Positions 17,147 to 56,038 of a stretch of 64,000 nucleotides of DNA are shown here, one piece after another; within the stretch, counting starts at the first letter, position 1; every line of letters starts with the position of its first letter. Source of the DNA: Trypanosoma brucei. Lineage: Eukaryota. The translations under genes were made by a program, and so were the position numbers. The DNA is taken from the NCBI GenBank assembly GCA_000002445.1, contig CM000207.1, positions 2,080,001-2,144,000 of the forward strand, read 5' to 3'. A model generated the notes under the pieces. The model had not been told where the DNA came from and did no database searches. It saw only the letters and a list, made by a program, of their open reading frames with translations.

Positions 17147-17160
17147 CACTGCAATAGGAT

Positions 17161-17220
17161 AATCACCAAAATAATAATTATTAGAAAGGTGGGAAGTGAA
17201 GAAAGAAGAAAACCCTTGAG
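17161..17220 (-). promoter_or_regulatory. Polypyrimidine tract / likely trans-splice acceptor region upstream of the transportin start
   Basis: Plus strand aatcaccaaaataataattattagaaaggtgggaagtgaagaaagaagaaaaccc is purine-rich, so pyrimidine-rich on the coding strand, and sits directly 5' of ATG 17146. Trans-splicing is assumed from trypanosomatid biology, not observed. Confidence 0.3.
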
Positions 17221-17684
17221 CAACAACAGAGCGTCTCATCGGTAAAGTAGTGGGAGCCAGCGGGAAAAAAAAATGTATGAAATGATAAAATGTCACCCCA
17301 CACAAAGGTAAACAACAGGAAGAAAATAATAATCAGCAGGATAACCGGACGACTACTAACGCGTGGCTTGATTGACGCTTTGAAACTCGTGCGTCGTGCA
17401 TATCGTCTTAACTTGGACGAATGCGGTCACGTTGCTATCCAAATTAATGTGATTAGTGAGGCGTTGTAACCCCACAACAAGTGAGTTGCTCATTTCAATC
17501 TCTTGCACGTTTTCTCAACTTCACGGGTGTGAAACAGCAGCGTATTCGACAAGGACTATGAAAAGGAAGGACGCCAAACAAAAAAAAAAAAACACTGGTA
17601 GAAACTTCGGCAGTTTACTGCACCCAGCGTGGCAATTATCTCCCCTGTCTTGATATTAATCGAAAATTGATTGGGCGTGCCACC

Positions 17685-27169: not shown

Positions 27170-30100
27170 CTATTTGTAGCTCCTTGGGTGCTGCATCACC
27201 CCAACTGGTTCAGGGATGGGCTCTGGACGATGATAAGGAGCGCAACCGTTGGAAGAGAACACCAGCGCGGACTGCCTCGTGGGGTTAAAACCCGGTGGTG
27301 GCTCACGGGGTTTGCAATGCGGCACTGCAGACCCTTCATTCCCTCCTACTCGAACCTTCGTTGCTGCTTCCTCAATACCTTCAATGATACGTATTACGTT
27401 AGATGTGATCATCGCGGGAATGAGATCGGGCCTGGCTTCCATGTTGCATGGAATGCCAAAGTTGCTTCCATTCGCAATCAGGAGATCTGACATTGTTTCA
27501 ACGTCCGTGATACTGGCCTCGCGCTGCAAGAGCATGTGAAGTATGCACAACCGCGCGCACATTAAGCGTCGCAGCTGAAGCAGCTGCAAAGCCGTTTGGC
27601 AATCACAAGTAATGAAAACACGGCTACCGCACTGCCATACCTCAAACGTCACTGGGGCCGCTTCGTCAACGATCTCCTCGAAGAGAATAGTACTGCTAAA
27701 CACCAGAAGCATTACGTTGTACACCTCTTGAGAGAGTTGGGAGCTAAAAGAACCAACGAGGCGATCGTAAGCTGTGTGGAGAGTATAGGGGACGCACACT
27801 GTGTTGCGCGTCCACGGGCATGCTGTAGGCACCGACATATCGCGAGAGCAGTTGATGTTCACGAACACACCGCTCCCGGCAAACCGCTTCTTCTGCGCAG
27901 TTTCAGCATCATGCAAAACAAAAATGCCACGCTGCATAAATGCTGCGGAACACAAGATGGAGAGCATCTGGGCATGTGTGTCATATTGTCGACGGAGATC
28001 GCCAACATCATCGATGTCCTCAAATGGGATTAAAGCGCCAAGCTGATCCTTTGCCTGCTGTACCAACAGCAGGATATCGACAATACGCATGCGGCTTAGA
28101 TAGCGTTTCTCGCACCATGTATTCTGTCCTTCTTCAGATAGCCCTTCCTGCTGCATTTGCATGTACTCAAGTACGGCACCAACCGATGACACCACATCAT
28201 TACGCAACCTGCCCTTGAACTGAAGCATCGTCTCTTGCACACAATTTTTGACTTTAAGTCGTTCTACTCTGTCCGTCACGTCGTATGGGACGTAAAACGG
28301 CGAGTTGCACGCAATGCATGATGCTGCCACTATGGAAAGTGTAGTAAGACCAGTAAGAAGGCCATGGAACACAACGGCGCCCGCATTCACAGCGAAAGGA
28401 AGGCGACCCACAATCAGACCTCGTAGTGCGACGTGATACCGTAGGTTTGCCGGCGGTTTTGTTGCCAGTTGCCTACTATCTACACCTTCCAGACCACCTT
28501 GTTTTGTCTCCGACCGAGATTCATATGCCTCACTTACAAGTTCACTCCACACCTTCTTGATGCTGAGGTGCTCAGGGTTATCGATACGCTCAATCAAAGA
28601 GGTGTGGTCCTCCTCGGGAACAATATAACCGCCATCACACAAAGTGTTCAAACTCAACTGCACGCTCACGTTACGAGGTTTCTCTGGACACATAGAGAAG
28701 AGAATATAAGGCGCACTGGTTAAATACAGACAGTGAAGCACAATCTCATGTATAACAGCATTGCTTAAACGACAGTCACATGGCGGTAGCTGAGGTACTT
28801 GTTCTTTCAAGACCATCGTGAAGAAGAAACCTTGCTGGACGCGCCCAGCGCGTCCGCGCCGCTGTTTGAGATTTACAGCGCTCTCCCACATAAGCTCAAG
28901 TGGTGGAAATGCAACAGAGTTGGGGTTCGACTCAGTGATGTATGGACGCTTCACTGTGCCGGAATCGATGACAAAAACAACATCTGGAAGTGTAATGGAC
29001 ACTTCAGCAATATCAGTAGCTACATATACCTTCTTTTTCGTCCCCGATTTCCGCTGTATGGCCTCCTGCACGTACGAGAGTTCAATGTCACGATACCATG
29101 GAATGGCATCAAGTTCTTCACCCAAGTTGTCCCGTATCCACAACGTGAGTTGTTCGACGACCGTGCGTCCAGGAACAAACATAAGTATGCTGTCCCCAGG
29201 TTTAGCAGCGGTGGCTAGGAACTCGAGTAACTTTTTCATATAAAAAATTATAGTATGTAACTGAATTGAGCTCATGATTCCACTACTCTCAATATCGGGT
29301 GCAACGCAAGCGACGCCAATTAGTCTGCTGACATCTTCAAGGTAGTAGTCGTGCACGGGGTACATAGCATTGGCCTTGGAATACTCCCCAACCGTTAAAC
29401 CGTCAAAGAAACCCGCCCATTTAGACGCCTCTGCAGTTGCACTGCAGAGTATAAGCTTTATCCGCCCAGGATTGCGCTTCATAACTAACTTCATCAGCAA
29501 CAGTGACACCTCCACCTCCACCGATCGCTCGTGGAACTCATCAAATATGACGTGCGTCATCCCAATACAGTCCGGTGTGGTGTGTAACAGATAGAGAAAG
29601 AGGGTGTAATTTGTCACGTACATAATCGGAGTTTGCCCCACTTCACCCGCATGTTCCCCGCGAACCCAATACCCCACGCGGCTTCCCACTTTCTCGCCGT
29701 AAAAAACGGAAACGCGCTCCGCCAGTTTAATTGCGGGTGTGCGCCGCGGCTGCGTGTTTACAATTTTCGCTCCTGGGTCGTCGTCCAGTATAGCCTTAGG
29801 GATAAGTGTGCTTTTCCCGGTACCCGTGTCTGTTACTACGATCGTCACATCGTGAGCGGCAACTAAGTCGAGGACCTGGCTAACATCAAGGGTTCCGACA
29901 ACACCAGTGGTGCTCGACGCCTGTTTGCGCAAGTGATCTGCAGTTTCATTTTGGTCTTCTTGCAGTGCGTAAAGTCGCTTAAATTTTTCAAGTGCCTCCT
30001 TGTCTGGTGGCAAAGACGACGGAGGCATTACGTTAGAGCCAGAAGGTCGGCCGCCCCGCCTGTTGCCTCCACGACGGTCGATCATTCTCCCCGCCCCGAC

Positions 30101-31291
30101 TGCACCACCGTCAATCATGCGATCCACCATGGCAGCATCCCTATCCATTCCCCTTCTTGGGTCGCGATCCATCATGGCAGCATCCCTATCCTGATCTGTG
30201 TCCCAGTTCCTTCCTTCCATTCGCTGCGACTCGCCCCAAGCCTCTTGCTGATGCTTTGGGCACCGCGACTGTGGCTCATGGTGACCAGCCCCCTCTGCGT
30301 CCCTGTAATTAGGGAGAGGTCGGGGATGAGCTGTGTTGGTTTCCCCCTTAGGCTGAAGATGGAGTAAGTGTTGCAACACGTCAAACTCGCTGTTGTAACC
30401 CCTAGTGATGTGCAACCGTACATCTTTCTCTGGTTGCGGCTGCTGTTGTGTATCATGTTCGCAAGCTATGCTCCGTTGTGCATTCATCAGATGACTAGAC
30501 GAATCAGCGAATTGTCCGTGACCCTCTGAACTATTTCGATGCTCTTCACCTGAGTATCCAGGCGGTGCGCCGCGGGGTGCTCTCCGGTCGTAGCTCGGGA
30601 TAGGAAATAAATGCGAGTGAGGAGGCTGTCGCCCCGCATTCATTCCGTGGGGGTGTCCGTGCGACCTGGGGTAAGGCGGTGATCCAAGAGCATCCTCTGA
30701 GTGTCGCCGTTGCTGATTCCATTCGTCGCTTGGTCGTGTTTCCTTATCCCACCGGTGAACCTCACGCACGGAATCATCGCACCGTTGTTGCTGAGTTATC
30801 CAGCGCTGTTGTGACGATGACCTCCTTATGGCTCCCTCTGAACTTTTAACCATCTGAGGGTAGTCACACGGGCGCGACTTGGTGCTGCGTTGCTCATCAC
30901 ACCAGCCCCTCTTATCACGAGTGTGTTGAGTATCATGGTGCAAGTATGGATCCACGTCGCTCCTGTGGTGCTGAAGCCTCCTGTTGTCTCCCACAGTGGA
31001 GGAGTACGCACCACCGCAGATGTCACTGTCGTCGGTATAATTATCTTTTCGGACGGTGAGGGAGACGTGTTGGTTACCTGACATGCCCCTGCCTTGTCGA
31101 GAGTACGGGTTACTGAGGGGGAAAGAACCTTGTTGCCGATTCCGGTATTCGTCTTTCCGCATTTCAGCGGGGTCGGAAATGCTTGCCTTGTTGGTGATTT
31201 TGGTGTTGCTCCCTTTTAAATGGATAGTAAGGAATGCAGTTACGACGCTAAAGCACAGTAAGCAGCTACACTGCAAACCCTTCCCAAGCAA
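27170..31291 (-). CDS. DEAH-box ATP-dependent RNA helicase with Arg/Gly/Asp-rich repetitive N-terminal region
   Basis: Walker A TDTGTGKST. Motif II VIFDEFHERS (DEFH). Motif III SAT. Motif V TDIAEVSITLPDVVFVIDSG. Motif VI QRRGRAGRV. N-terminal repeats MDRDAAMMDRD / MDRDAAMVDRM and RGG (DRRGGNRRGGRPSG). True start may be at one of several internal Met residues downstream of 31291. Confidence 0.8.
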   Translation of the reverse strand: MLGKGLQCSCLLCFSVVTAFLTIHLKGSNTKITNKASISDPAEMRKDEYRNRQQGSFPLSNPYSRQGRGMSGNQHVSLTVRKDNYTDDSDICGGAYSSTVGDNRRLQHHRSDVDPYLHHDTQHTRDKRGWCDEQRSTKSRPCDYPQMVKSSEGAIRRSSSQQRWITQQQRCDDSVREVHRWDKETRPSDEWNQQRRHSEDALGSPPYPRSHGHPHGMNAGRQPPHSHLFPIPSYDRRAPRGAPPGYSGEEHRNSSEGHGQFADSSSHLMNAQRSIACEHDTQQQPQPEKDVRLHITRGYNSEFDVLQHLLHLQPKGETNTAHPRPLPNYRDAEGAGHHEPQSRCPKHQQEAWGESQRMEGRNWDTDQDRDAAMMDRDPRRGMDRDAAMVDRMIDGGAVGAGRMIDRRGGNRRGGRPSGSNVMPPSSLPPDKEALEKFKRLYALQEDQNETADHLRKQASSTTGVVGTLDVSQVLDLVAAHDVTIVVTDTGTGKSTLIPKAILDDDPGAKIVNTQPRRTPAIKLAERVSVFYGEKVGSRVGYWVRGEHAGEVGQTPIMYVTNYTLFLYLLHTTPDCIGMTHVIFDEFHERSVEVEVSLLLMKLVMKRNPGRIKLILCSATAEASKWAGFFDGLTVGEYSKANAMYPVHDYYLEDVSRLIGVACVAPDIESSGIMSSIQLHTIIFYMKKLLEFLATAAKPGDSILMFVPGRTVVEQLTLWIRDNLGEELDAIPWYRDIELSYVQEAIQRKSGTKKKVYVATDIAEVSITLPDVVFVIDSGTVKRPYITESNPNSVAFPPLELMWESAVNLKQRRGRAGRVQQGFFFTMVLKEQVPQLPPCDCRLSNAVIHEIVLHCLYLTSAPYILFSMCPEKPRNVSVQLSLNTLCDGGYIVPEEDHTSLIERIDNPEHLSIKKVWSELVSEAYESRSETKQGGLEGVDSRQLATKPPANLRYHVALRGLIVGRLPFAVNAGAVVFHGLLTGLTTLSIVAASCIACNSPFYVPYDVTDRVERLKVKNCVQETMLQFKGRLRNDVVSSVGAVLEYMQMQQEGLSEEGQNTWCEKRYLSRMRIVDILLLVQQAKDQLGALIPFEDIDDVGDLRRQYDTHAQMLSILCSAAFMQRGIFVLHDAETAQKKRFAGSGVFVNINCSRDMSVPTACPWTRNTVCVPYTLHTAYDRLVGSFSSQLSQEVYNVMLLVFSSTILFEEIVDEAAPVTFEVWQCGSRVFITCDCQTALQLLQLRRLMCARLCILHMLLQREASITDVETMSDLLIANGSNFGIPCNMEARPDLIPAMITSNVIRIIEGIEEAATKVRVGGNEGSAVPHCKPREPPPGFNPTRQSALVFSSNGCAPYHRPEPIPEPVGVMQHPRSYK

Positions 31292-32448: not shown

Positions 32449-35400
32449 TCATTGCTGCGGATTGGTTTGTTTACCCTTGAAGATCTTGTTCTCTTGTTCG
32501 TACATTTCTGGTGCTATGGCATTGCGAGCGCCCCGCAACACTTCGCCGGTTCCCCGTAGCAACCCGTCCAACATGGCAGAGAAAGCGACAGGTAGGCAAA
32601 TGCTGTTGCCTTGAGGTCCGAGGCAGTGAAGAGCAATATCATACGCTACGCGAAACCCTCGGGTTACTTCTATTAGTCCATTTTGAACCCCCTGCGTGGC
32701 GTTCACCGGTTGCGAACCACGTGCCGCAGGATTCACACCACTAGCCGGCACGAGGTATGAAATGGAGTTACTTGTCACGTGCTGCAGCGAATGCGAGAGA
32801 CCCGCAGCGCTATGCAGTGACTCAGTGGTTACCGTCAAAAGGAAGCTACGTAACGCGCAACATACAGCTGCGAAAAAGCGCTTGTTGCGACGGTGCTCGT
32901 TTAGCGGGGCGAATAAAACCCCAGTGCTCGCCGAGGCAACGTTTGACGCCAGCTGTAGCGGTTGAACGGCGCAGCAAAGCAGAAAGAAGCCCCAAAACTT
33001 TCCAATTTCCCCACCCAAGCGCTGACAGAATAACCCCCACACTTGTTCAGCGGGGCATGAAGTGATCACCATCCGCGGCAGTTGTACTTGTGCGCGCTCC
33101 AGTGAGGGTAGCAAATAGTTACACAGCTCAAAGACATTTCCATGTAGGGCTTCAAAGGCGCTTCTCCCTTCAAATTGCACATAGAGTGTCATGGTGACAG
33201 GAGATAGTTCAATTTTTCTGAAAAATAGTGAGTCTCTACGTGCCTTCTTCCAAATTATATTCTCCTCGGTGACATTTTCGGGCACCTCAATGAATCTTGG
33301 AAGCAAATTCAGGGCTCGCCTGTGGAGAGCCACGGTAATAGGCTGGAGACGAACGTACAGCTCCTCCTCCGGTTTCCCCTCAATTACCGTTCCCGCATAT
33401 CCTGACAAAGTGGAAGGGAGAATTGTGGTCCATTTCATTGAAAATAAATCGCTATCACAGTCCCGAAGCGACTGAGGTAAGGAAGCCATTAGAAGTGTTT
33501 GCACAGTGCTTCCCTCAATGCGGTCAATGATCTCTCCGTCTTTCACTGTAATATGCAATTGCATGAAGTACGCCTTACCAGGGGCAAAACGATCAAATTG
33601 CGCGCGAATACCCCTCAGGTGAGCAATGACGTGCTCATCCTGTCGACGACCACCACCGAGGACGTCATCGCGGTGTTCATCACACCCAAAGTTGCGGTTC
33701 AGCTCATTGGAAGGCCCACGCTCTTCCGATGCAAGCTGATTAGCACACGACTCCGGAGCAGTATCTTCATCTACAGCAAAGCGTTGGAGGGTACGTAAGT
33801 ATTTGTCTGGAACGTCTGCGCGTATAAAGTCTTCGCCGCCGTAGAGATGCACAACGAGATTACAATCTCGCACAAAAATCTCCATTGACGCGGTGGAGAA
33901 GGGCGGCAACCTCCATGGTGCGTCATTTGGGCAATTCAAAGGGTCCCCAGATGTGGAGCTCCAACAACCGATGGGCAAACATCCTTCATAAGTAGCGTGA
34001 ACAGACAAAAAATTCTGAGACTTGCAGTGACTCGTTAGATCTACAGCTTCATCATTACGGGTATTCCAGACTCCCCACGATGATTTCCCAAAGGTTACGT
34101 CTCCAAGCATATCAAAATCAGAAAAAGACTGTGCGCCCTCGTCAACGCAGGGCGCATCGATCTTCTGGTGAAAAACTTCTGGCACCCCGTGACAAGCTGC
34201 GATGACGGAACTATTTAGCAGATGGCGCAAACGTGCACCATAATCACGTGCCACGACATGCACATCCACCTCAGACATCTCCCTAACCGTTTTCACCTGA
34301 GTAATGTGGGCGAAGTACTCCCCACTGCGCTGCACCAACAAGTACGGTGAAGGGAGAAAATCGACATCCAACCCCGTAAAAAAATTTGTAACAGTGGTTT
34401 GGAAGTGATATAGCGAGTCTTGGGCAAAGAACATGGCAACGTGAAGGTCGTGCACCGTGATAAAGAGTGGTTTCTCTGATGTCGCATTCAAGGAAACTGT
34501 TACTGCCGCTGCGCCTTTCGTTTCTGCGTCACCCCCTTTAGCACAACACTTACTCACGTGATCGGTGGACACATTAGACTGGTAAATGTCCAAAACCCTT
34601 ACAAACCCAAGGTTTGCGAGGTGCGCCCCTGTACCCCTCTTTCTGTCGCCGAAAAGTGAACTGTATCCCGTCTCATGGTCAATGACCAATAAACTCTTTG
34701 GAAAGTTGTCGTGAATAAATAATGATGCCGTGTCTCTACCGAGGTACAATTTTATAACGGTTGTTCCTGTCGGAAGACTTGGCACAATGATATCGATTTT
34801 GATGTGGGGAGAAAGGCCAGCGATCACGGAGTACCTTCCGAAAGGTCGATACTCCACTAGTGTGTCAAAAAAACTTACTCTTACTTTTGCACTTGTTGCC
34901 ATCGAAACACCATCATCGCTCTGTGCATCTATTACATCCGCGGAGCAGTCCTGCACTCCCGACACCTTTTGAGCCACAGCAGAGCTCAGCACCTCAGTGC
35001 TTGGGTCTGACAAATAATTAAAGATGACAAGAAACCAGTTATCCCCCTCCCACGCAGGCTGGTGGCCCATGAAAATGCGGTCCAAAAGCACAACTGCATC
35101 ATACGTTTCAGTGTGATCCTCGAAATTTAAAAACCGGCAAAGTGAAACTCCTCCCGCTCGCCGACCATACAATACTTCCGAGGTTCCATGAGCGTCTGCC
35201 GGAGTTTGGAGGCCGCCCACATCATTGTAATATGTGCCGTAACTTTGGAGAAGCGTCACAGTTCCGCCCCATTCAGGTGAAGAAGCATGCTCAGGAAGCC
35301 ACTGAAAGTCTACGCTGTCAGACCATACATCACACAAATTTTCTTGAAGGCAAAAACACAAAGTCTCGGCGTGAACAGTCACCTTCTTAACATCATCTGA

Positions 35401-38400
35401 CGTCTCGTGAAAGGAAAACACTTCAACGTTTGAAAACCTCAGTTGATACTGATGATACAGTAGTCGAGCATCAGTGACCTTCCGCATTTCGTAAGGTATG
35501 CAGCGCCACAAGGGTTCTCCTATGGCCACGCCTGCAGATGAAAGGCGCGGTGCCCATAACACCGTCGATACCTCGCCCACCAACAACCTGATACTAATGC
35601 TTGTGGCTTCGGAAGCACCGTCCGCGCCCACGCTCCACATGTCATCGCATTGTGAGGATAAATTATCTCTGCACGTATCACCCTTCATCCTTCTCTCCCC
35701 TCGGTGCAATTTTTTAAACATAATGCATAGCTTGTCAACAGTCTCCGCCACCTGGTTAAGGAAGAACGCGATCAGAAGAAACTCACATTTGTGGAGGGTA
35801 CCACTTACGTGATGAACGACTGCCCGAACAGTTATTAAACTTCTTTCTTCAGCTTTGACCTCTTCCTGGTGGTATTCCCTTGTGAAGGGTACATTAGGTG
35901 CGGATGCCGTACCAATATTTTTGTACGACGGGTGGTTCGGGTGACGCTGCACAGTAATGCATGGTTCCCCTTCTTCAGTGTCGAACGAACACTGAATCCC
36001 GCTTCTTTCGTTGTCCTTGTGGTCGTTCAGCGATAGTAGCACCTTGCTGAGTGAAATCTTCATGCCACCAGCGCTGTCCACAGAGAGTTTAACATTCTCC
36101 AGGTAACAACTTAGCGTAACTGGAAGATACGGCCCCTCAACATCGCCGAAACCCGCGCACAAGGCACTGGTGAAGAGATGCATTTCCTCTCCTTCTTCTC
36201 GCAGCCGACCCCACAGGCGACGGGTAAGAGGGCCACAGTAGTCAGGATCTGGTGCCTTTGATGTCATGAACAAAACCTCCACCATTGCGTTCTCTAGCTC
36301 CAACTCAAACGATCGAAGAACCAAATACGGCGCCACCACGCTTTTCTTAGGGATTGCGGAAGATGCTGTCTCAGAGGACGGAAGCGCCGGCGGAAACTCC
36401 ACAAGCGGGTCCTCGCACGCACTGCCTTTCGACCGGTCCACGTTGTCGCCTACATTCTCCTGCGTTGGAACAACCGAGTGGATCGACCCTGAGGAAGGGA
36501 ACACAGACGGTAACGCAGCGTCTTGCGATCTTTGATCCGCCACGGTGCTAGGAGAGGGGCCACTCACTATGCACTGGAGTCTCTTCCAATAACTGCCTAA
36601 CCTCTCTAGAGTATTCAGATTCACATTTACGATCAGATCTATCCCCGACAAAATAATAGCAACGCTCTCAAATACAGTTGCCGCTGCATCAATCCCCTCG
36701 TTAGGAAATTCACCGATATACCGAGTTGCCTCCGCAGGGGTTAGGGGGTGGGTTGTACCGATGATAATCCCCACACTGAACCGCCGCTTTGATTTCGATA
36801 CGGTATTCACTCTCGTGGTAAGCACAACTCGGCCATACTTGGTGTTGCCCACACCGTTCCAATCAGTCAGCTCAGTGCGGGCATCCTCACTGGTATCATC
36901 TTCGCACGGGAGCCGTTCATATGCCTCAATGGCAACTATCCCCACCGAGCAACGGCGAGCAAGGTCACTTCCAAACACACCGTGCAATGCATCCTCTGAA
37001 GAAAGAGAGTTGGTGATCGTCGGATATACCAACAACCTAATACCGCTTACGTACACTTCGTAGAACCCTGTACGGAACAGAAAACGGTGTAAAATGACCC
37101 TGTGTTCCCGGGATAGAAGCAACTCATCAACACTATTATCCTCAAAGTGTTCTACAAGGGCTTTCCATGCGCGCTTGACCCCCTCACGATCTTCGCAACG
37201 TAGAAATGTGGATGAAATGAGTTCACATGTAATCTTCAGCGACGTGGCGGATCGCCGTGTCGCGCAGACATCACCTTTGGCCGCTAAACTTGCTGGCTCT
37301 TCAGAAGGTTTTGGCGCACCCGCAATCGCACGAGCGATGTGAACCAGGTGTCCCAGCTGCGTTGGTGAAAGCACGAAGAGGAATACCTTTGTTGTTATTT
37401 GTGCCCTGCTGAATCCCTTCGGCACTCCAACCGCCATGTCAGCCTCACTGAGGTGGAATTCAACACTGTGTATGAACTCCTTTGGATGCCCGCTGCACAA
37501 AAATATATCGCCCGTATCAACAACTTCACCCCTTTCCACATCGGCATCAACCATCGTTTGGCGCCTACCATACGGATAGACAGCGGCGCGAAGACCAGAA
37601 AATCGAACAATTTTCTTCATTGTGCCTCCATTCGGATCCGAACCCGCGTCGTCAATCTCGAACCCTCCTTCAAATGACACCAGTAACTCTACAGTGCCAT
37701 ATGGAGGCTCTCGCCCGACGACTATTTCCTGTCCGCGAGGTGGTACCCGCAGGATGACACTAACATTGCTCATGCGGCCACTCACACTGTAAGCCAACTT
37801 CTTTATGCTGCATACGAGGGCCCTTACACAGTCGTCAAGCGTGTGTTGTGAGGACAATTGCCCAACAGAATGAGACCCCCACTCCTCCACAACGTAATTG
37901 GGGCCTCTCCCGTCTGCACCCCGCGAGAGAATTCCATCATTGTCAAGGGATGAGTACGCATCCTCCACCGTTTCTCGAGACAGCGGGATTTCCTCCGTCA
38001 CACCCTTGCTGTCGGCGCCCCCCTCACCAAAAGTAGGAGGATGATCACAGTAACGGGAGGACGTAGTGCACTCCATTGCACGAGGATTGACGTCGAAAAC
38101 GAGCTGAACACCGTCCACTTCGAACCGCCGCCTCCCGGTTGTGCCCACACTAAACGTAGCCTCCACAGTGTGCACATGCCCAGACGCTAAGCTCAATAAC
38201 CCACGCCGCGTAGAACCTGGCGCAACGGTATCTCCACCGCATTCTACACCCGCAGTACCTAGAACTGTCTCATTGATGTAAGTTTCGTTGAGCTGCAGGT
38301 TCGAGAGCTTAACAACAACTCCCCAACCACCCATTGTAAGGCCTACGCGTTCCAACTGATCTTCATTAATATCCTTCACGATGTTCTTAAGCGTTTGCTT

Positions 38401-38454
38401 CACAGCAGCCAACAACAACTGATCCTTCAACCACCTGAGCACAAATGGGGACAT
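32449..38454 (-). CDS. Large chorein-N-domain protein (VPS13/ATG2-like bridge lipid-transfer family), 2001 aa
   Basis: N-terminus MSPFVLRWLKDQLLLAAVKQTLKNIVKDINEDQLERVGLTMGGWGVVVKLSNLQLNE resembles the chorein-N consensus (..[35 protein letters not shown]). 6 kb uninterrupted ORF. Family assignment rests on N-terminal similarity only. Confidence 0.5.
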   Translation of the reverse strand: MSPFVLRWLKDQLLLAAVKQTLKNIVKDINEDQLERVGLTMGGWGVVVKLSNLQLNETYINETVLGTAGVECGGDTVAPGSTRRGLLSLASGHVHTVEATFSVGTTGRRRFEVDGVQLVFDVNPRAMECTTSSRYCDHPPTFGEGGADSKGVTEEIPLSRETVEDAYSSLDNDGILSRGADGRGPNYVVEEWGSHSVGQLSSQHTLDDCVRALVCSIKKLAYSVSGRMSNVSVILRVPPRGQEIVVGREPPYGTVELLVSFEGGFEIDDAGSDPNGGTMKKIVRFSGLRAAVYPYGRRQTMVDADVERGEVVDTGDIFLCSGHPKEFIHSVEFHLSEADMAVGVPKGFSRAQITTKVFLFVLSPTQLGHLVHIARAIAGAPKPSEEPASLAAKGDVCATRRSATSLKITCELISSTFLRCEDREGVKRAWKALVEHFEDNSVDELLLSREHRVILHRFLFRTGFYEVYVSGIRLLVYPTITNSLSSEDALHGVFGSDLARRCSVGIVAIEAYERLPCEDDTSEDARTELTDWNGVGNTKYGRVVLTTRVNTVSKSKRRFSVGIIIGTTHPLTPAEATRYIGEFPNEGIDAAATVFESVAIILSGIDLIVNVNLNTLERLGSYWKRLQCIVSGPSPSTVADQRSQDAALPSVFPSSGSIHSVVPTQENVGDNVDRSKGSACEDPLVEFPPALPSSETASSAIPKKSVVAPYLVLRSFELELENAMVEVLFMTSKAPDPDYCGPLTRRLWGRLREEGEEMHLFTSALCAGFGDVEGPYLPVTLSCYLENVKLSVDSAGGMKISLSKVLLSLNDHKDNERSGIQCSFDTEEGEPCITVQRHPNHPSYKNIGTASAPNVPFTREYHQEEVKAEERSLITVRAVVHHVSGTLHKCEFLLIAFFLNQVAETVDKLCIMFKKLHRGERRMKGDTCRDNLSSQCDDMWSVGADGASEATSISIRLLVGEVSTVLWAPRLSSAGVAIGEPLWRCIPYEMRKVTDARLLYHQYQLRFSNVEVFSFHETSDDVKKVTVHAETLCFCLQENLCDVWSDSVDFQWLPEHASSPEWGGTVTLLQSYGTYYNDVGGLQTPADAHGTSEVLYGRRAGGVSLCRFLNFEDHTETYDAVVLLDRIFMGHQPAWEGDNWFLVIFNYLSDPSTEVLSSAVAQKVSGVQDCSADVIDAQSDDGVSMATSAKVRVSFFDTLVEYRPFGRYSVIAGLSPHIKIDIIVPSLPTGTTVIKLYLGRDTASLFIHDNFPKSLLVIDHETGYSSLFGDRKRGTGAHLANLGFVRVLDIYQSNVSTDHVSKCCAKGGDAETKGAAAVTVSLNATSEKPLFITVHDLHVAMFFAQDSLYHFQTTVTNFFTGLDVDFLPSPYLLVQRSGEYFAHITQVKTVREMSEVDVHVVARDYGARLRHLLNSSVIAACHGVPEVFHQKIDAPCVDEGAQSFSDFDMLGDVTFGKSSWGVWNTRNDEAVDLTSHCKSQNFLSVHATYEGCLPIGCWSSTSGDPLNCPNDAPWRLPPFSTASMEIFVRDCNLVVHLYGGEDFIRADVPDKYLRTLQRFAVDEDTAPESCANQLASEERGPSNELNRNFGCDEHRDDVLGGGRRQDEHVIAHLRGIRAQFDRFAPGKAYFMQLHITVKDGEIIDRIEGSTVQTLLMASLPQSLRDCDSDLFSMKWTTILPSTLSGYAGTVIEGKPEEELYVRLQPITVALHRRALNLLPRFIEVPENVTEENIIWKKARRDSLFFRKIELSPVTMTLYVQFEGRSAFEALHGNVFELCNYLLPSLERAQVQLPRMVITSCPAEQVWGLFCQRLGGEIGKFWGFFLLCCAVQPLQLASNVASASTGVLFAPLNEHRRNKRFFAAVCCALRSFLLTVTTESLHSAAGLSHSLQHVTSNSISYLVPASGVNPAARGSQPVNATQGVQNGLIEVTRGFRVAYDIALHCLGPQGNSICLPVAFSAMLDGLLRGTGEVLRGARNAIAPEMYEQENKIFKGKQTNPQQ

Positions 38455-40107: not shown

Positions 40108-40409
40108 ATTCTTCCCTCTAGTGTAAAAAAATTAAAAAAACAAATCTCACAAAAAAACATCAGAGCAATAAGATTTCCACCAAAATAAATACAAACAACA
40201 TACATCAAGAAAACACCTAAATAAATTAACAACCTAGCAGAACAAAAGAAGCTCCGTATACTCCTCAATAAACGCATTTGTGCCCCGCGATCAGCAACAA
40301 ATGAAATTACGAAAAAGGGAAAAAGAAAGCAAAAAAGATATAAAGGAACCCATAGCAAGAGGTATTAACAATAACCTACTTCAAGAACTAAATCATCTAT
40401 CACACACCG

Positions 40410-40982
<573 letters not shown>

Positions 40983-41184
40983 TTATTTTTTGACTACCGT
41001 TTTGCAGCACATACACAGAATGTTATCCCACAGAAAATTTAAAGGATTGAAACACTTCCTTAGCACAACAATGCACGACAGAACAAGAGCAACAAAACTG
41101 CACCACAATACAATCACAAGCTCACAATTTTCGCTTGTTCATCATATAATGAAACTAAAATATAACATCACAAATCACGCGCCG

Positions 41185-41757
<573 letters not shown>

Positions 41758-41976
41758 TTACTTTTGGTTACGGTCCTTCCACACACACACACACAGTGTT
41801 TGCTGAGGGGTAATAAGAAAAATGGTGAAATGCTAACAGTCACACGACGCTGTACAAAGAGAGCGTTTTTCCTGCAACAGGTGTCCATTAACTTAGCGGC
41901 ATTTACTTCAATTGGAGGGCACATCACCAGAACAATCACAACAAGGAAAACAAAACCTAAGAGTTTCAGCGGAGTA

Positions 41977-42549
<573 letters not shown>

Positions 42550-42770
42550 TTACTTTTGGTTACGGTCCTTCCACACACACACACACACAGTGTTTGCTGA
42601 GGGGTAATAAGAAAAATGGTGAAATGCTAACAGTCACACGACGCTGTACAAAGAGAGCGTTTTTCCTGCAACAGGTGTCCATTAACTTAGCGGCATTTAC
42701 TTCAATTGGAGGGCACATCACCAGAACAATCACAACAAGGAAAACAAAACCTAAGAGTTTCAGCGGAGTA

Positions 42771-43343
<573 letters not shown>

Positions 43344-44265
43344 TTACTTTTGGTTACGGTCCTTCCACACACACACACACAGTGTTTGCTGAGGGGTAAT
43401 AAGAAAAATGGTGAAATGCTAACAGTCACACGATACTGTACAAAGATAGGAATGTAGAAACAGCGTGTTAAGTTGTAACGTAAGTGGACTGCAATTGACA
43501 AACGAAATATAGTTTGTCGGGAGGGCAGCACTGCCTGTTGCTGGCATTTCCGGATACTTCAAGTTAGGTCAGTAATATTCGGCAGAGGGAACTGTACCAG
43601 GTGTATCCTTTTTGTAAGTCTGTTGTTCCTCATATTAATTTTTGGCTATCCCCCTGGTCCTCTCTCTTCGTGCGTGGCACCGACTGTAAGTACGATCTTA
43701 GTCTGGAGGAAAAGAACGAAACGTGGACTCCTCTCTGACTATATCTCATTTTTAAACTGGTGAGCTATCCCTTAGCTGAAGGGTCAGGGCAGGTCAGCGC
43801 AGAGTTTCTAAACCGAATTCCTGACTGCATTGCGTCTGCTTAATGTGTCAGCGTCATTATCTGTTCTCTTTACGGGGGGGTGGGGGGTCAACGACGTGGA
43901 ATGATGAGGAATATTTATTAGGAGAAAATAATTATTTTAATATAGGGATGCAAGATAAATGTAAAGTTCGATCCAAAAAAAAACACCAAGACGCTGCCTA
44001 AAAGCACTGCGGAAACGGTTCGCCGAACCAGGCATATTCTACGCAAACAAGAGAGGGGAAACACAAAGGAGGGAAGGAAAAGTGATCAACGAGGAATGAT
44101 GAATAGTGCACCAATGAGCTAACAAATGGTGTTATGTGTACTACCCTGCCGTTTATTCGGTGCTAAATGAAGTGTAACATGAGGCCACGTCATCACGGAG
44201 ACTGAAGGCTAACAGCACTGCCACTGCCATGCGCACATGTGCGCTGAATCAGGAAAACGCCGGAG

Positions 44266-45105
44266 TCAGTTGTCACTCTCTCCCATTTGCTGCTGCTCGT
44301 TTTGCGGGAGAAATATGTTGATGATACTCACAATAAATGACGTCACATTTGCACCCCACAACATGGTACCGTTCAAAAATGAAGCAGAGAGTTGAGAGTA
44401 CGTTGTTTCATGTCGGAGGAGGGTTCCTAAAATCTCGGCCGTCCATTGCACCTGGCGGTCATTCATGAGCTTCTTAAGGTCCAACGGCACCCCGCTGTCA
44501 AGTTCCCCAAGCGGGAGGTAATCTTTGAGCCTCAAGGTGTAAAAACCCGGATCCTCCTGCAGAGCCTTAAGCAATTTTTCTGATCCAAGTATATCCACAA
44601 GGTTCACATCATGTGCTAAGGCTTCTGACCATAAGTCGCTCAGTATATTTTGCAATGTGCCCATTTTTATCTCCCTCCTACCATGTTGTGCTACGGCTTG
44701 CTGTCGGTTGCGTTCAATCGCGTGTTGTATCCTATGCATAACCGGCTCGTCAAGCTCATCAGAACGTGACTGCATCCAGAAGAACAAGGGCTGCTTGCCG
44801 TTATCTATATCAAAGAGCAAAACCCTTGACGGTCTGCATTTTTCTACCCAACTAACCTTGACCCTACCGGGAGGTAGTGTAACGCGGCATTGTTCCTCAC
44901 CATCAGAAGAAACCCACGTCAACACAGTGTCCTGTAGCAGTCCTTCGCGTAAGAGGAATAAAAATCCACTCCCCAGTAACGGCCGCACAATTCCATCTTG
45001 TAAGATCATTCTGCCTGCCTGGACCTTTACAACCACCGTACTGCTGTAGGCAGTTGCGCCTGGTTGAGAAGATAACAAGACTGCTTTGGAGTCTGCAGAA
45101 GCCAT
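44266..45105 (-). CDS. RPN13: Proteasomal ubiquitin receptor Rpn13/ADRM1 homologue (Pru domain + C-terminal DEUBAD-like region)
   Basis: VVKVQAGRMILQDG...VLTWVSSDGEEQCRVTLPPGRVKVSWVEKCRPSRVLLFDIDNGKQPLFFWMQSRSDELDEPVMHRIQHAI is colinear with the human ADRM1 Pru domain (LVEFRAGKM...[38 protein letters not shown]). Confidence 0.65.
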   Translation of the reverse strand: MASADSKAVLLSSQPGATAYSSTVVVKVQAGRMILQDGIVRPLLGSGFLFLLREGLLQDTVLTWVSSDGEEQCRVTLPPGRVKVSWVEKCRPSRVLLFDIDNGKQPLFFWMQSRSDELDEPVMHRIQHAIERNRQQAVAQHGRREIKMGTLQNILSDLWSEALAHDVNLVDILGSEKLLKALQEDPGFYTLRLKDYLPLGELDSGVPLDLKKLMNDRQVQWTAEILGTLLRHETTYSQLSASFLNGTMLWGANVTSFIVSIINIFLPQNEQQQMGESDN

Positions 45106-49557: not shown

Positions 49558-51066
49558 ACTTTACTAAAGAACAGTAGGTTATCACAAACTGACTGCAATG
49601 GGTGATTTCTGAGGAGGGAGGAAAGGAAAAAAAAATGCTAAAAAATGATTCCTCAACGTAACATGAGAAGGTAGAGACAGTACCGCAGCGACAAAAGGAA
49701 CAAAAAAACAATAATGACAGCGATAACGACGATAATAACGATAATAACGATGCCAACGACTGGACCAGCAGACACCCGCGTTAGTAAAAGGAGAAACATA
49801 TCACATGTATCCCAGCCAATGCGATATCATAACACTCTTACAAACGAAAAGGAGTAGTACAGAAGAGATATACAAAAGACTTAAGGATGTAAAAACGGGG
49901 AGAGGGGCGGGTTCAGAACGACGCCACATTAAGTGGTACAAATGGCGAGTTCAAGTGCAATTTATGAGTGAAGAGAAGCACCCACGACCGCGGCAGTTGG
50001 CACAAAAGCAGCCGTTAGATACGGAGGAAAACCGCCACGGCGTCGGTCACCACCTGAATTCTCTCATGCCCTTTTCCTTCCTTGCGTCCCTCAAATCCTC
50101 CCTAAATCAACGCCTCTCGGAATCCTCGATGGTTCATGTGATGAATGCGGTTCAAGCGAGATAACTTACAACAGTGCTTATATCACTGACAATAATCCGA
50201 CTATCCCATAACACCTTTCACGCATAATGTCACACATGTCACTAGGTGGCACGCACTGAAAAGAGCCCGTCAAGAAAAGACGATCCCTAATCCCTCACGT
50301 AATTCCTTTTCGCCCAGTCCCTGAAAGAGAAGAGGCGGAGAAAAAAAAAAGAAAAAAGAAAATAAATGCGCCATAACACTAACTAACTTGCGAGTGAGTG
50401 AGTGAGTGGACAAGAAAGATACAACATAGCCATATCAATCACTTAACAATCCCAACAAAATTATAAACACACACACACACACACCTTCACGTGCACGTGG
50501 GCAAATGCATTACCACCTATCCTTTCCTTCCCATCATAACAGTCATCATCCCCCTCCACCATTCCGTCCACTTCTCAACGCCTTTTTCCCCTTTTTCCCC
50601 ATTTTATTCTTTTTTTTTTGCATTTTTCCTGCTTTTTTTTTTTTTGCGTTCTCGCACCAGTAGGTGAGCACCGACAAAGAGAAGAAAGAGAGTAATATAT
50701 GTATATATGTAATTTCCCGCACACAAAAAACAAAGAAGCAAAAAGAAAATGGATGCAAGACGTTAGAAATCCCTACACCACTAACTTGGATTTTTGCATC
50801 TTTTCCGTTGACTACTGACATTGTCTCCACTCAAAGAATAAGAGGGGTCACATCTCTATTCTCATCTCTCTTCTAAGTACACATCAAAAAAGGTACAAAA
50901 AGAAAAAGCAAAGACAAACACACACACACACACACACAAAGGAAAATAATTTAAAAAAAACAAAAATTAAAAAATCAAACGAAGCCGTAATCACCCTTCT
51001 TTTGATACAAACAATCAGGCGTCAAACAACATTTGTTTCTCTCTTCCCACACGAGCCAGATGTATA

Positions 51067-51090
51067 AATATATATATATATATATATATA
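51067..51090. repeat. (TA)12 microsatellite within the 4.5 kb ORF-free gap
   Basis: atatatatatatatatatatatat read directly. Nearby (GT)n at 51117-51129, (CA)n at 50468-50485 and 50921-50940, (TAG)5 at 51243-51258. Confidence 0.9.
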
Positions 51091-54994: not shown

Positions 54995-56038
54995 CAGGTA
55001 CACCCTTTTTGCCTTGATAATTTTTTTTGGGGGGGTATTTGTTTTTATTTCTTCTTGACTTTTTTTTTTTATTATTCCCACTTTTACCTTCCCTTCCCCT
55101 TATTACTTATGTGTTTTACCCCCTTTTTTTTTTTTCGGCGCTCTTATTATTGTTAATACTCGCCTTTTTTTTGTTTTTTCCCCTTTATGGTCCTTTCCCT
55201 TCCCTGTAGATCCTTCTTTTTTTTTTTTCTTACGTTCTTTCCACTCTCCTTTAATCTGTTGTACTCCGCCCGTGTGTATGTGAAATGAATGAGATATTGT
55301 CGAAAACGCACACGTTGCAGCTCCTCCAGGAAATGGAGCGAAAAAGAAAGATATATATATATATATATATATGAGTTAACCTCGAAGGGTCTACACGCAG
55401 AGTGAACGAAAAGAAAATTATAATTCTATTAACAATAGCAACGGCGAGAACCGTTATTACTAACAAGTTCTACGTAGAAACAACGAGTCTTTTTTTAAAA
55501 AAAAAAACAGCCTGAAACATACAGAGTGACTGCGACCCCAAACGCTTCAAGTTATATGAAGTAATAAAGGAAATAAACAAGGGAGCATATTGTGAACCAA
55601 AATGGACGACTTATTCACGCATACAAATATATATTTATATATTTACGTACATTTGTATGAGACAACTTATTATGTTTGACAACCGAGTGTATGGGAAAGA
55701 TCACGCGATTTGTGGTTCCCGCCTGCAGAGCCTTGGAAGATAATAGTACCACGACAGTTTTTCATATTCCTCGTCAAGCGCGCTGAGCTATATAGATCTA
55801 GATATATATGAGTTGCACCCGAATTCAACTAACGGGACACATAAAAACAGCTAGAATCCAAAGGGGGAAAAAAAATTGAAAAAAATTGAAAAAAAAAGAG
55901 GTTTAGAGGAAAGCAAACAGAGACGTGAAGAAAGAAAATCAACTGGGCCATACTAAAGCGGTGAAACCCACGATCTCGAACAGAAAGATGGAAAACAAAG
56001 AGAAGAAACAAAACCCTCCACAGACTCGATGAGCGAAA

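What the first reader, a model, noticed from the sequence alone, without database searches (positions are those of the whole stretch)
32449..38454. 2001-aa chorein-N protein, a candidate bridge-like lipid transfer protein (VPS13/ATG2-type)
Only the first ~60 residues give a recognisable (chorein-N-like) signal; the rest is unannotatable by eye. At 2001 aa it is shorter than canonical VPS13 (over 3000 aa) and about ATG2-sized. Family membership in trypanosomatids (ATG2 versus a short VPS13 paralogue versus other BLTP) is not obvious.
Basis: partly seen in the sequence, partly recalled or inferred. Interest (0 to 1): 0.5.

Follow-up and report, generated by a model that had tools for sequence, protein, structure and literature searches.

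The report
Divergent trypanosome ATG2 lipid-transfer protein
This 2001-residue Trypanosoma brucei gene is a very diverged copy of ATG2, the rod-shaped protein that feeds lipids into growing autophagosomes; databases already name it ATG2, but parasite reviews as late as 2021-2023 still list ATG2 as missing or not found, and nobody has tested it.

Summary
The ORF is real: window 32449-38454, minus strand, 2001 aa. It is identical to T. brucei TREU927 XP_827583.1 (UniProt Q38D67), which UniRef already names 'Autophagy-related protein 2'.

The family question resolves to ATG2, not VPS13 or another bridge-like lipid transfer protein:
- A profile of 17 kinetoplastid relatives hits human ATG2A in the PDB at E=1e-32, at both ends and in the same order, and yeast Atg2 at E=2e-11.
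- No VPS13 chain is hit, although VPS13 chains are in that PDB copy.
- hhalign against ATG2A gives 99.6% probability. It is confident for residues 1053-1996.
- The N-terminal 125 residues match the ATG2A N-terminus on their own (93.6%), against 36% for VPS13.
- ATG2 motifs are present: EYRP, A-x-DS (the 'CAD' site), HLYGGxDF, an LIR-like F-x-x-L, and C-terminal amphipathic helices.

Caveats:
- Pfam recognises no N-terminal domain in this sequence, and its ATG2 score (46.7 bits) is just under the cut-off (50).
- Residues 130-1050 have no detectable similarity to ATG2A.
- Both AlphaFold2 models were low confidence (pLDDT about 30). Even so, the only strong structural matches of the N-terminal model were four bridge-like lipid transfer proteins.

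Verdict: an ordinary, already-annotated but uncharacterised ATG2 orthologue. Function is inferred, not shown.

The parts
32449..38454 (-). Complete coding sequence of the T. brucei ATG2 orthologue: 2001 aa plus the stop codon at 32449-32451.
   Evidence: ORF listed and translated. The translation is identical to P0001 = XP_827583.1 / Q38D67.
38080..38454 (-). Residues 1-125: the N-terminal chorein-N-like / RBG1 start, an amphipathic helix followed by long beta-strands. In ATG2 this is the inferred lipid-entry, ER-facing end.
   Evidence: Kinetoplastid profile A6 has ATG2A 11-106 as top PDB hit, E=7e-4. hhalign gives 93.6% against ATG2A and 36% against VPS13. The full profile A5 matches ATG2A 10-127 at 21 bits. 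The Pfam HMMs do not detect this region.
37555..38454 (-). Residues 1-300: the part of the low-confidence AF2 model with the N-terminal helix and strands. It most plausibly supplies the superposition on the N-terminal lipid-binding fragments of Vps13 and Atg2, but the fold searches do not report which query residues were aligned.
35305..38067 (-). Residues 130-1050: a lineage-specific, fast-evolving central region. It is presumed to hold the central RBG repeats plus loops, but has no significant similarity outside kinetoplastids.
   Evidence: hhalign of this region alone against ATG2A 128-1001 gives under 3% probability, barely above shuffled controls. Pfam finds nothing in segments 200-600 and 600-1000. 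An exhaustive HMMER search of 1.84 billion representatives with the residue 1-1200 profile found only 18 proteins; every one that carries a source name is trypanosomatid. The AF2 model shows many long strands but at pLDDT under 40.
32467..35298 (-). Residues 1053-1996: the C-terminal half, confidently homologous to human ATG2A residues 1002-1935.
   Evidence: hhalign of A5 against 8kbx_B: probability 99.6%, E=2.8e-24, score 215, against 16-23 for reversed or shuffled controls. HMMER profile hit to ATG2A 1411-1933 at 91.5 bits, and to yeast Atg2.
34843..34854 (-). E-Y-R-P (residues 1201-1204), aligned to D-Y-R-P of ATG2A (about residue 1122). This lies in the region corresponding to Pfam ATG2 profile positions about 866-1006 in the T. 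cruzi-group orthologues.
   Evidence: hhalign alignment with confidence digits 6-9. Orthologues P0002, P0003 and P0005 match Pfam profile positions 864-1006 here.
34414..34431 (-). F-F-A-Q-D-S (residues 1342-1347), aligned to S-C-A-D-S of ATG2A (the 'CAD' motif at 1223-1225). The Cys is not conserved; the A-x-D-S part is conserved across kinetoplastids.
   Evidence: hhalign alignment, high confidence. The A5 consensus reads 'AxDSxxxF'.
34105..34128 (-). S-F-S-D-F-D-M-L (residues 1443-1450): an LIR-like motif with core F1447-x-x-L1450, a candidate ATG8-binding site in a loop about 85 residues upstream of HLYGG.
   Evidence: An equivalent acidic or Ser-rich F-x-x-[ILV] motif occurs at or close to this place in most relatives that cover the region. 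In the Leishmaniinae it is SSSFSDLED, the motif published as the ATG2 LIR of L. infantum (PMC10903960). The human ATG2A LIR FCIL (1362-1365) lies within about 9 alignment columns. Binding was not tested.
33826..33849 (-). H-L-Y-G-G-E-D-F (residues 1536-1543), aligned to H-L-Y-G-G-R-D-F of ATG2A (1429-1436).
   Evidence: HMMER and hhalign alignments. The motif is conserved as L[YFC]GGxDF in most kinetoplastid relatives; the Leishmaniinae have LYEG[NT]DL and P0018 has LHSGVDF.
33184..33648 (-). Residues 1603-1757: the best match to the Pfam ATG2 model, profile positions 1291-1434 of 1697.
   Evidence: PF13329: E=1.4e-12 and 46.7 bits for the whole protein, against a gathering cut-off of 50. A 600-aa C-terminal fragment gives E=5.7e-9.
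32461..32976 (-). Residues 1827-1998: the C-terminal helical, amphipathic region equivalent to the ATG_C / C-terminal localisation region and tail of ATG2A (1745-1937). It is the inferred membrane-binding end.
   Evidence: This is the best-aligned block in hhalign (mean confidence 8.6 for 1827-1886 against 1745-1804). The AF2 model shows long helices here. Three of the seven strongest amphipathic-helix windows of the protein fall here, including the strongest, 1963-1980, muH 0.65.

Best explanation
The gene encodes the Trypanosoma brucei orthologue of ATG2, a rod-shaped repeating-beta-groove (RBG) bridge-like lipid transfer protein.

Inferred mechanism, by homology to yeast and human ATG2:
- The N-terminal chorein-N-like end takes up glycerophospholipids at the ER.
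- Lipids slide along a hydrophobic groove formed by the RBG repeats.
- They are delivered to the growing phagophore at the C-terminal end.
- That end is held on the phagophore by amphipathic helices, by a PROPPIN (ATG18/WIPI) bound to PI3P, by ATG8 through the LIR-like motif at residues 1447-1450, and probably by the scramblase ATG9.

Shown here:
- Sequence homology to ATG2 at both termini and across the C-terminal half.
- ATG2 signature motifs.
- Absence of the accessory domains of other BLTP families.
- An N-terminal model that matches BLTP folds.

Inferred, not shown:
- A continuous groove through the divergent central region.
- Lipid transfer activity.
- The partners.
- The role in autophagy.
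For: - Pfam gives only PF13329 (ATG2) for this protein (E=1.4e-12). It is found in 12 of 17 family members, best E=2.4e-41. Relatives P0010, P0011 and P0012 pass the curated cut-off at 142, 128 and 101 bits, and they are linked to the T. brucei protein at E=2e-88 to 7e-61.
- The family profile A5 against the PDB hits ATG2A at E=1.1e-32, with N- and C-terminal stretches in the same order, and yeast Atg2 at E=1.6e-11. Nothing else is below E=2.
- hhalign of A5 against ATG2A gives 99.6% and score 215, against 16-23 for the controls. One alignment in a single order covers 1-1998 against 1-1937.
- The N-terminus alone gives 93.6% against ATG2A and 36% against VPS13.
- The EYRP, AxDS, HLYGGxDF and LIR-like motifs and the C-terminal amphipathic helices are present.
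- The Leishmaniinae orthologues carry the published kinetoplastid ATG2 LIR.
- The length, 2001 aa, is close to the 1938 aa of ATG2A.
- ATG9 and ATG18 homologues are reported in trypanosomatids (PMC3901119).
- LECA is inferred to have had one ATG2 (PMC7613979).
Against: - The T. brucei sequence scores 46.7 bits, below Pfam's gathering cut-off of 50.
- No Pfam N-terminal (VPS13_N or ATG2 N-part) match exists for it or for its relatives' N-terminal fragments.
- Residues 130-1050, nearly half the protein, show no significant similarity to ATG2A.
- Both AF2 models have pLDDT about 30, so a continuous groove is not demonstrated.
- The C-terminal model gave no meaningful fold hits.
- A period-2 amphipathic strand count was not above shuffles.
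- No experimental data on this gene were found.
- Reviews state that ATG2 was not found in trypanosomatids or is missing from parasitic protists. That most plausibly reflects BLAST-level searches.
Confidence: 0.85

Rival explanations
1. It descends from ATG2 but has been repurposed. The lineage-specific central region (residues 130-1050) and the overall divergence would reflect a bridge used mainly at other contact sites, for example lipid droplets, glycosome turnover or ER-endosome contacts. Bulk autophagosome expansion would then rely on another lipid source.
For: - Divergence is extreme: only 18 hits in 1.84 billion representatives with the N-terminal 1200-aa profile.
- The central region has no detectable similarity to ATG2A.
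- The Leishmaniinae orthologues are about 900 aa longer.
- From my own knowledge, not tested here: mammalian ATG2 also acts at lipid droplets.
Against: - The regions that in ATG2A mediate phagophore targeting are the best conserved: the LIR position, the stretch upstream of HLYGG and the C-terminal helices.
- Central RBG domains of ATG2 are known to vary even between yeasts (PMC7613979), so divergence there is expected for a bona fide ATG2.
Confidence: 0.1
2. It is a short VPS13 paralogue, or a BLTP3/SHIP164-like protein, that only resembles ATG2 through the N- and C-terminal modules these families share (chorein-N, ATG_C).
For: - The chorein-N fold and the ATG_C region are shared by VPS13 and ATG2 (PMC7613979).
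- The best structural match of the N-terminal model is the Vps13 fragment 6cbc, ahead of Atg2.
- The ATG2A N-terminus is about as far from the kinetoplastid N-terminus (22.7 bits) as it is from VPS13 (22.9 bits).
Against: - No Pfam VPS13 family (VPS13_N, VAB, PH/C-terminal) or BLTP3A_B match occurs in any of the 17 members.
- VPS13A, VPS13C and Vps13 chains are present in the PDB copy, yet the family profile does not hit them at E<=10.
- hhalign of the N-terminus gives 36% against VPS13 and 93.6% against ATG2A.
- Homology to ATG2A extends over about 940 residues, including ATG2-specific motifs outside ATG_C.
- Trypanosoma has separate VPS13 and Tweek homologues (PMC7613979).
Confidence: 0.03
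3. The ORF is not a functional gene: either a chance ORF or a decaying pseudogene.
For: None beyond the generic NCBI label 'hypothetical protein, conserved' and the 'LOW QUALITY PROTEIN' flag on the T. b. gambiense copy.
Against: - A 6-kb uninterrupted ORF lies in the sense orientation of the polycistron.
- Full-length orthologues at 41-42% identity exist in T. cruzi marinkellei, T. conorhini and T. rangeli, with many invariant columns along the whole length.
- Orthologues are also present in the Leishmaniinae.
Confidence: 0.01

Closest known systems
Human ATG2A (PDB 8kbx/8kby/8kc3/8y1l; 1938 aa) and yeast Atg2 (PDB 9t0c; 1592 aa)
   Same: - Similar length, and a single alignment from residue 1 to the C-terminus in the same order.
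- The N-terminal chorein-N-like segment.
- The EYRP/DYRP, A-x-DS/CADS and HLYGGxDF motifs.
- An LIR-like F-x-x-L in the loop upstream of HLYGG.
- C-terminal amphipathic helices aligned to ATG2A 1745-1937.
   Different: - About 20% identity over the aligned columns.
- Residues 130-1050 are not detectably similar.
- The Cys of the 'CAD' triad is absent.
- The Pfam score is just below the cut-off and no Pfam N-terminal match exists.
- The spacing between the LIR and HLYGG is about 85 residues, against about 64.
- The WIPI/Atg18-binding residues could not be mapped.
Kinetoplastid 'ATG2' proposed for Leishmania infantum A4IBB7 (PMC10903960, 2024)
   Same: It belongs to the same family. The Leishmaniinae representatives P0021 and P0023 carry the published LIR sequence SSSFSDLEDTVAS, and P0021-P0023 are retrieved by the T. 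brucei N-terminal profile (E=9e-9 to 6e-7). UniRef names all of them 'Autophagy-related protein 2'.
   Different: The Leishmaniinae proteins are about 2900-2960 aa, with long low-complexity inserts, one of them inside the N-terminal domain. The Trypanosoma proteins are about 1976-2001 aa. Identity to the T. brucei protein is about 21%.
VPS13 family (Vps13 N-fragment 6cbc; VPS13A 9yg4; VPS13C 9yqp)
   Different: - No VPS13_N, VAB or PH domains.
- No sequence hit to any VPS13 chain.
- The N-terminal hhalign probability is only 36%.
- The protein is 2001 aa, against more than 3000 for VPS13.
BLTP1/Tweek (LPD-3, 9cap), BLTP2/Hobbit and BLTP3/SHIP164
   Different: - There is no N-terminal transmembrane helix: no hydrophobic 19-residue window before residue 590.
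- No BLTP3A_B Pfam match.
- The C-terminus is ATG2-like, whereas SHIP164 lacks a specialised C-terminus (PMC7613979).
- A separate 4203-aa Tweek homologue exists in Trypanosoma.

Membership tests
ATG2 (Pfam PF13329; autophagy-related protein 2) | Match to the curated family HMM at or above the gathering score. | tested here: inconclusive
   The T. brucei protein scores 46.7 bits (E=1.4e-12) against a cut-off of 50. The Trypanosoma orthologues score 24.7-46 bits. More distant members of the same family pass, at 142, 128 and 101 bits. The precomputed annotation (PF13329.14) and UniRef do call it ATG2.
ATG2 | Homology to a solved ATG2 along the protein, in one order. | tested here: met
   The family profile hits ATG2A at E=1.1e-32, with the N-terminus matched to the N-terminus and the C-terminus to the C-terminus, and hits yeast Atg2 at E=1.6e-11. 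hhalign gives 99.6%, E=2.8e-24, confident over 1053-1996 against 1002-1935, with controls scoring 16-23. The central region 130-1050 is not significant on its own.
ATG2 | N-terminal chorein-N / RBG1 lipid-binding domain. | tested here: met
   - Profile against PDB: ATG2A 11-106 is the top hit, E=7e-4.
- hhalign: 93.6%.
- The N-half of relative P0010 matches Pfam ATG2 positions 31-239, E=4.5e-6.
- Caveats: the Pfam HMMs do not detect it in this sequence, and the model pLDDT is only 45-59 there.
ATG2 | C-terminal ATG_C / localisation region made of amphipathic helices. | tested here: met
   Residues 1827-1998 align to ATG2A 1745-1937 with the highest confidence of the whole alignment. Helices are predicted here. 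Strong helical hydrophobic moments are found at 1855-1872, 1918-1935 and 1963-1980. Membrane binding itself was not tested.
ATG2 | LIR (ATG8-binding) and PROPPIN (ATG18/WIPI)-binding segment upstream of the HLYGG strand. | tested here: inconclusive
   An LIR-like acidic F-x-x-[ILV] motif occurs at or near the equivalent place in most relatives that cover the region and matches the published Leishmania motif. A conserved F-x-S lies downstream of it. The alignment to the human LIR/WIPI-binding region is low confidence. No binding test is possible with these tools.
RBG / bridge-like lipid transfer protein superfamily | A continuous hydrophobic beta-groove formed by consecutive RBG repeats; ATG2 has eight (PMC7613979). 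| tested here: inconclusive
   - Both AF2 models have mean pLDDT of 32.6 and 29.2.
- Groove continuity and hydrophobic lining cannot be judged from these models.
- The period-2 amphipathicity count was not above shuffles.
ATG2 | Lipid transfer activity and a requirement for autophagosome formation. | not testable with these tools
   No experimental paper on the T. brucei gene was found.
VPS13 | VPS13_N HMM match, VAB repeats, C-terminal PH domain, and more than about 3000 aa. | tested here: not met
   No VPS13 Pfam family is found in this protein or in any of its 16 relatives at E<=0.1. No VPS13 chain is hit in the PDB at E<=10, although such chains are present. The N-terminal hhalign probability is 36%. 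The length is 2001 aa.
BLTP1 (Tweek/Csf1) and BLTP2 (Hobbit) | An N-terminal transmembrane anchor followed by the RBG rod. | tested here: not met
   No hydrophobic 19-residue window (mean Kyte-Doolittle above 1.6) occurs before residue 590. There are no Pfam hits to these families.
BLTP3 (SHIP164/UHRF1BP1) | BLTP3A_B HMM match and no specialised C-terminus. | tested here: not met
   PF24917 is not hit, although it is weakly hit by the Vps13 control. The C-terminus is ATG2-like.

The most novel reading that the evidence does not exclude
The roughly 900-residue central region (130-1050) has no detectable similarity to any ATG2 outside kinetoplastids, and in the Leishmaniinae the protein as a whole is about 900 aa longer. 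This region could be a lineage-specific module, either new RBG repeats or a new partner-binding surface, that redirects the bridge to a trypanosomatid-specific donor or acceptor membrane such as glycosomes during life-cycle remodelling. On that reading, kinetoplastid ATG2 would be a functional variant rather than a plain orthologue.
Probability: 0.1. Interest if true: 0.55.

Novelty: already known. Interest (0 to 1): 0.27.

Why it matters
Reviews of parasite autophagy have stated that ATG2 was not found in trypanosomatids, or is missing from most parasitic protists, and have speculated about lineage-specific substitutes (PMC3901119 2012; PMC8161075 2021; PMC10104450 2023). This locus shows that T. 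brucei does encode a full-length, strongly diverged ATG2. That agrees with UniProt's automatic naming and with a 2024 remark on Leishmania (PMC10903960).

The practical value is modest:
- It removes a supposed gap in the core autophagy machinery.
- It gives a concrete gene to knock down in T. brucei.
- It flags a central region so diverged from the host protein that it might be parasite-specific.

It is not a new kind of system.

Tried and rejected
- Word-indexed homology searches, all three used, reached only Trypanosoma species. This left the MSAs too shallow for good structure prediction.
- PDB searches with the single sequence and with a 4-sequence Trypanosoma profile found nothing. Only the 17-member family profile reached ATG2A.
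- Both AlphaFold2 jobs gave low confidence: N-terminal part 1-1200 at pLDDT 32.6, C-terminal part 900-2001 at pLDDT 29.2.
- Foldseek with the C-terminal model returned only helical-bundle noise.
- The afdb50 library was unavailable.
- Pfam on separate segments (1-200, 200-600, 600-1000, 1000-1400, 1400-1620, 1750-2001) gave no hits.
- hhalign of residues 130-1050 against ATG2A 128-1001 was not significant. The template was a single sequence, which limits sensitivity.
- The count of period-2 amphipathic segments was 26, against 21±4 in shuffles. This is uninformative.
- VPS13 paralogue, BLTP3-like and Hobbit/Tweek-like readings were considered and rejected (see the membership tests).
- Searches for tandem repeats and Rfam families in the window were negative and are irrelevant to the finding.

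Full report
**The observation**

The window carries an uninterrupted ATG-to-stop ORF at 32449-38454 on the minus strand, 2001 aa long. Almost every large ORF in the window is on the same strand, which is the signature of a trypanosomatid polycistronic unit. The translation is identical over its whole length to T. brucei brucei TREU927 XP_827583.1 / EAN77253.1, UniProt Q38D67. NCBI labels it 'hypothetical protein, conserved'. UniRef names it 'Autophagy-related protein 2'. Full-length orthologues at 41-42% identity exist in T. cruzi marinkellei, T. conorhini and T. rangeli, and invariant columns occur along the whole protein. It is a real, conserved gene.

**What the standard libraries see**

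Pfam gives a single family, PF13329 (ATG2). In this copy the model is a full-length one with 1697 positions. The score is E=1.4e-12 and 46.7 bits, just under the curated cut-off of 50. The best stretch is residues 1603-1757 against profile positions 1291-1434. The T. cruzi-group orthologues match a second region that falls in the same order, about residues 1120-1296 against profile positions 864-1006.

No N-terminal domain is detected in residues 1-200 or in N-terminal fragments of relatives, even at E<=10. The same library does recognise the human ATG2A N-terminus (PF13329 at 90 bits, PF12624 'VPS13_N' at 38 bits) and the Vps13 N-terminus (135 bits), both used as controls. A single-sequence search of the PDB also finds nothing.

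**Reaching further**

The word-indexed protein search found only Trypanosoma species. An exhaustive HMMER search of 1.84 billion cluster representatives, using a profile of residues 1-1200, found just 18 proteins. Among them are:
- metagenomic proteins of 1934-2382 aa that carry no taxon label;
- the roughly 2900-2960-aa proteins of Porcisia, Leptomonas and Novymonas.

Every hit that carries a source name is trypanosomatid. The family is therefore very diverged from ATG2 elsewhere.

Three of the more distant members pass the Pfam ATG2 cut-off comfortably, at 142, 128 and 101 bits. Twelve of 17 members hit PF13329, and none hits any VPS13 or other BLTP family. The Porcisia and Novymonas representatives contain SSSFSDLEDTVAS. 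That is the motif published as the LIR of the proposed L. infantum ATG2, A4IBB7 (PMC10903960).

**Link to solved ATG2 structures**

A profile of the 17-member alignment (A5) hits human ATG2A (8kbx_B) in the PDB at E=1.1e-32, with two stretches in the same order:
- profile 2-123 against ATG2A 10-127, at 21 bits;
- profile 1456-1929 against ATG2A 1411-1933, at 91.5 bits.

The same profile hits yeast Atg2 (9t0c_A) at E=1.6e-11. The next hit is noise, at E=2.

VPS13 chains are present in that PDB copy: 6cbc, 9yrm, 9yg4 and full-length VPS13C 9yqp. None of them is hit at E<=10.

I checked the ATG2A sequence against the PDB chain: residues 1-1831 residue by residue, with the remainder seen only in part. 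A local hhalign of A5 against it gave 99.6% probability, E=2.8e-24 and score 215. Reversed or shuffled ATG2A scored 16-23.
- With a greedy setting, one alignment in a single order runs from residues 1-1998 to ATG2A 1-1937.
- With default settings, the confident part is 1053-1996 against 1002-1935.

Specific ATG2 motifs line up:
- EYRP (1201-1204) with DYRP;
- FFAQDS (1342-1347) with the 'CAD' site SCADS, where the Cys is not conserved;
- HLYGGEDF (1536-1543) with HLYGGRDF.

The C-terminal block 1827-1886 aligns to ATG2A 1745-1804 with the highest confidence in the protein. It lies in a predicted helical region with strong amphipathic moments.

**The N-terminus**

A 12-sequence kinetoplastid N-terminal alignment (A6) shows this conserved pattern: an amphipathic helix, then LGxFF, DQL, LELNE..IN, RLVSG.V.SI.G, and DG..L. 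Its results are:
- Its top PDB hit is ATG2A 11-106 at E=7e-4; the next hit, at 0.14, is noise.
- hhalign gives 93.6% (E=2e-7, 93 columns) against ATG2A.
- hhalign gives 36% against a VPS13 N-terminal alignment.
- The positive control, VPS13 against ATG2A, scores 96.4%.
- The N-half of relative P0010 matches Pfam ATG2 profile positions 31-239 at E=4.5e-6.

It is closest to ATG2, and it is too diverged for the curated HMMs.

**Structure**

Both AlphaFold2 runs had only 5-6 Trypanosoma sequences in the alignment and gave poor confidence. The mean pLDDT was 32.6 for residues 1-1200 and 29.2 for residues 900-2001. The 'continuous hydrophobic groove' cannot be confirmed from them.

The N-terminal model is nonetheless informative about the fold.
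- Foldseek against 350,542 PDB chains gave only four hits at E<=0.001, all chains of 6cbc (the Vps13 N-fragment, E=1e-8) or 6a9e (the Atg2 N-domain, E=4e-4). The next two hits, both 6a9j chains, fall at E=1.1e-3 and 2.3e-3.

The C-terminal model gave only noise.

**What remains dark**

Residues 130-1050 show no significant similarity to ATG2A 128-1001, with hhalign below 3%, and no Pfam hit. This fits published work showing that the central RBG domains of ATG2, especially RBG4, vary even between yeasts (PMC7613979). It still means that nearly half of the protein is assigned by position only.

**Family decision**

- ATG2 is supported by the sequence evidence above.
- VPS13 is rejected. There are no VAB, PH or VPS13_N matches, no VPS13 PDB hits, and the protein is only 2001 aa.
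- Hobbit and Tweek are rejected. There is no N-terminal transmembrane segment, and a separate 4203-aa Tweek homologue exists in Trypanosoma.
- BLTP3 is rejected. There is no PF24917 match, and the C-terminus is of the ATG2 type.

**Mechanism (inferred from ATG2 biology, not shown here)**

The N-terminal chorein-N-like cavity would extract phospholipids at the ER. Lipids would then move along the RBG groove to the phagophore. The C-terminal end would be anchored there by four things:
- its amphipathic helices;
- an ATG18/WIPI-type PROPPIN on PI3P;
- ATG8, through the conserved LIR-like motif at 1447-1450;
- ATG9.

Homologues of ATG9 and ATG18 are reported in trypanosomatids (PMC3901119).

**Novelty**

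The exact sequence is already named ATG2 in UniRef. A 2024 paper notes that ATG2 'seems to be present in kinetoplastids'. Earlier and even recent reviews list ATG2 as not found or missing. No experimental study of the T. brucei gene was found. The finding is therefore an ordinary, correctly suspected, already-annotated ATG2 orthologue. Its mild interest lies in its extreme divergence and in correcting the literature's claim of absence.

Noticed in passing
window 1-64000: Nineteen of the 22 ORFs of at least 200 aa lie on the minus strand, consistent with one long trypanosomatid polycistronic transcription unit. The window has no tandem repeats scoring at least 80 and no Rfam family at gathering score.
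   Followed up: partly
window 27170-31291 (-): The downstream neighbour is a 1373-aa ORF with DEAD and Helicase_C domains, a large DEAD/DEAH-type helicase.
   Followed up: partly
window 44266-45105 (-) and 14420-17305 (-): There is a 279-aa protein with an Rpn13/ADRM1 Pru domain (a proteasome ubiquitin receptor) and a 961-aa HEAT-repeat protein with a weak UTP20_N match. Several other neighbours (373, 422, 900, 293, 339 and 384 aa) have no Pfam hit.
   Followed up: partly
window 50000-55100: This stretch has low G+C (0.39-0.42) and a strong negative GC skew (-0.43 at 52-54 kb). It also holds overlapping ORFs on opposite strands, 53670-54434 (+) and 54077-55081 (-). The composition is unusual compared with the rest of the window.
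   Followed up: no
window 40108-44265: More than 4 kb without any ORF of at least 200 aa, between the 373-aa ORF and the Rpn13 gene. This could be a long UTR or intergenic region, or it could hold small genes.
   Followed up: no
P0021-P0023 (Porcisia, Leptomonas and Novymonas orthologues): The Leishmaniinae ATG2 orthologues are about 2900-2960 aa, roughly 900 aa longer than the Trypanosoma ones. They have long low-complexity inserts, including one inside the N-terminal chorein-N-like domain between the first helix and the RLxxG strand.
   Followed up: partly
P0025 (T. b. gambiense DAL972 orthologue): The gambiense copy is annotated as 2023 aa and flagged 'LOW QUALITY PROTEIN', against 2001 aa here. 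In this window the ATG at 38454 is the first start codon after the upstream in-frame stop, and the alignment to ATG2A begins at residue 1, which supports the 2001-aa model.
   Followed up: partly
PF13329 'ATG2_CAD' is now a full-length 1697-position ATG2 model. A missing 'Chorein_N' hit therefore has a different meaning than it did in older Pfam releases.
   Followed up: yes
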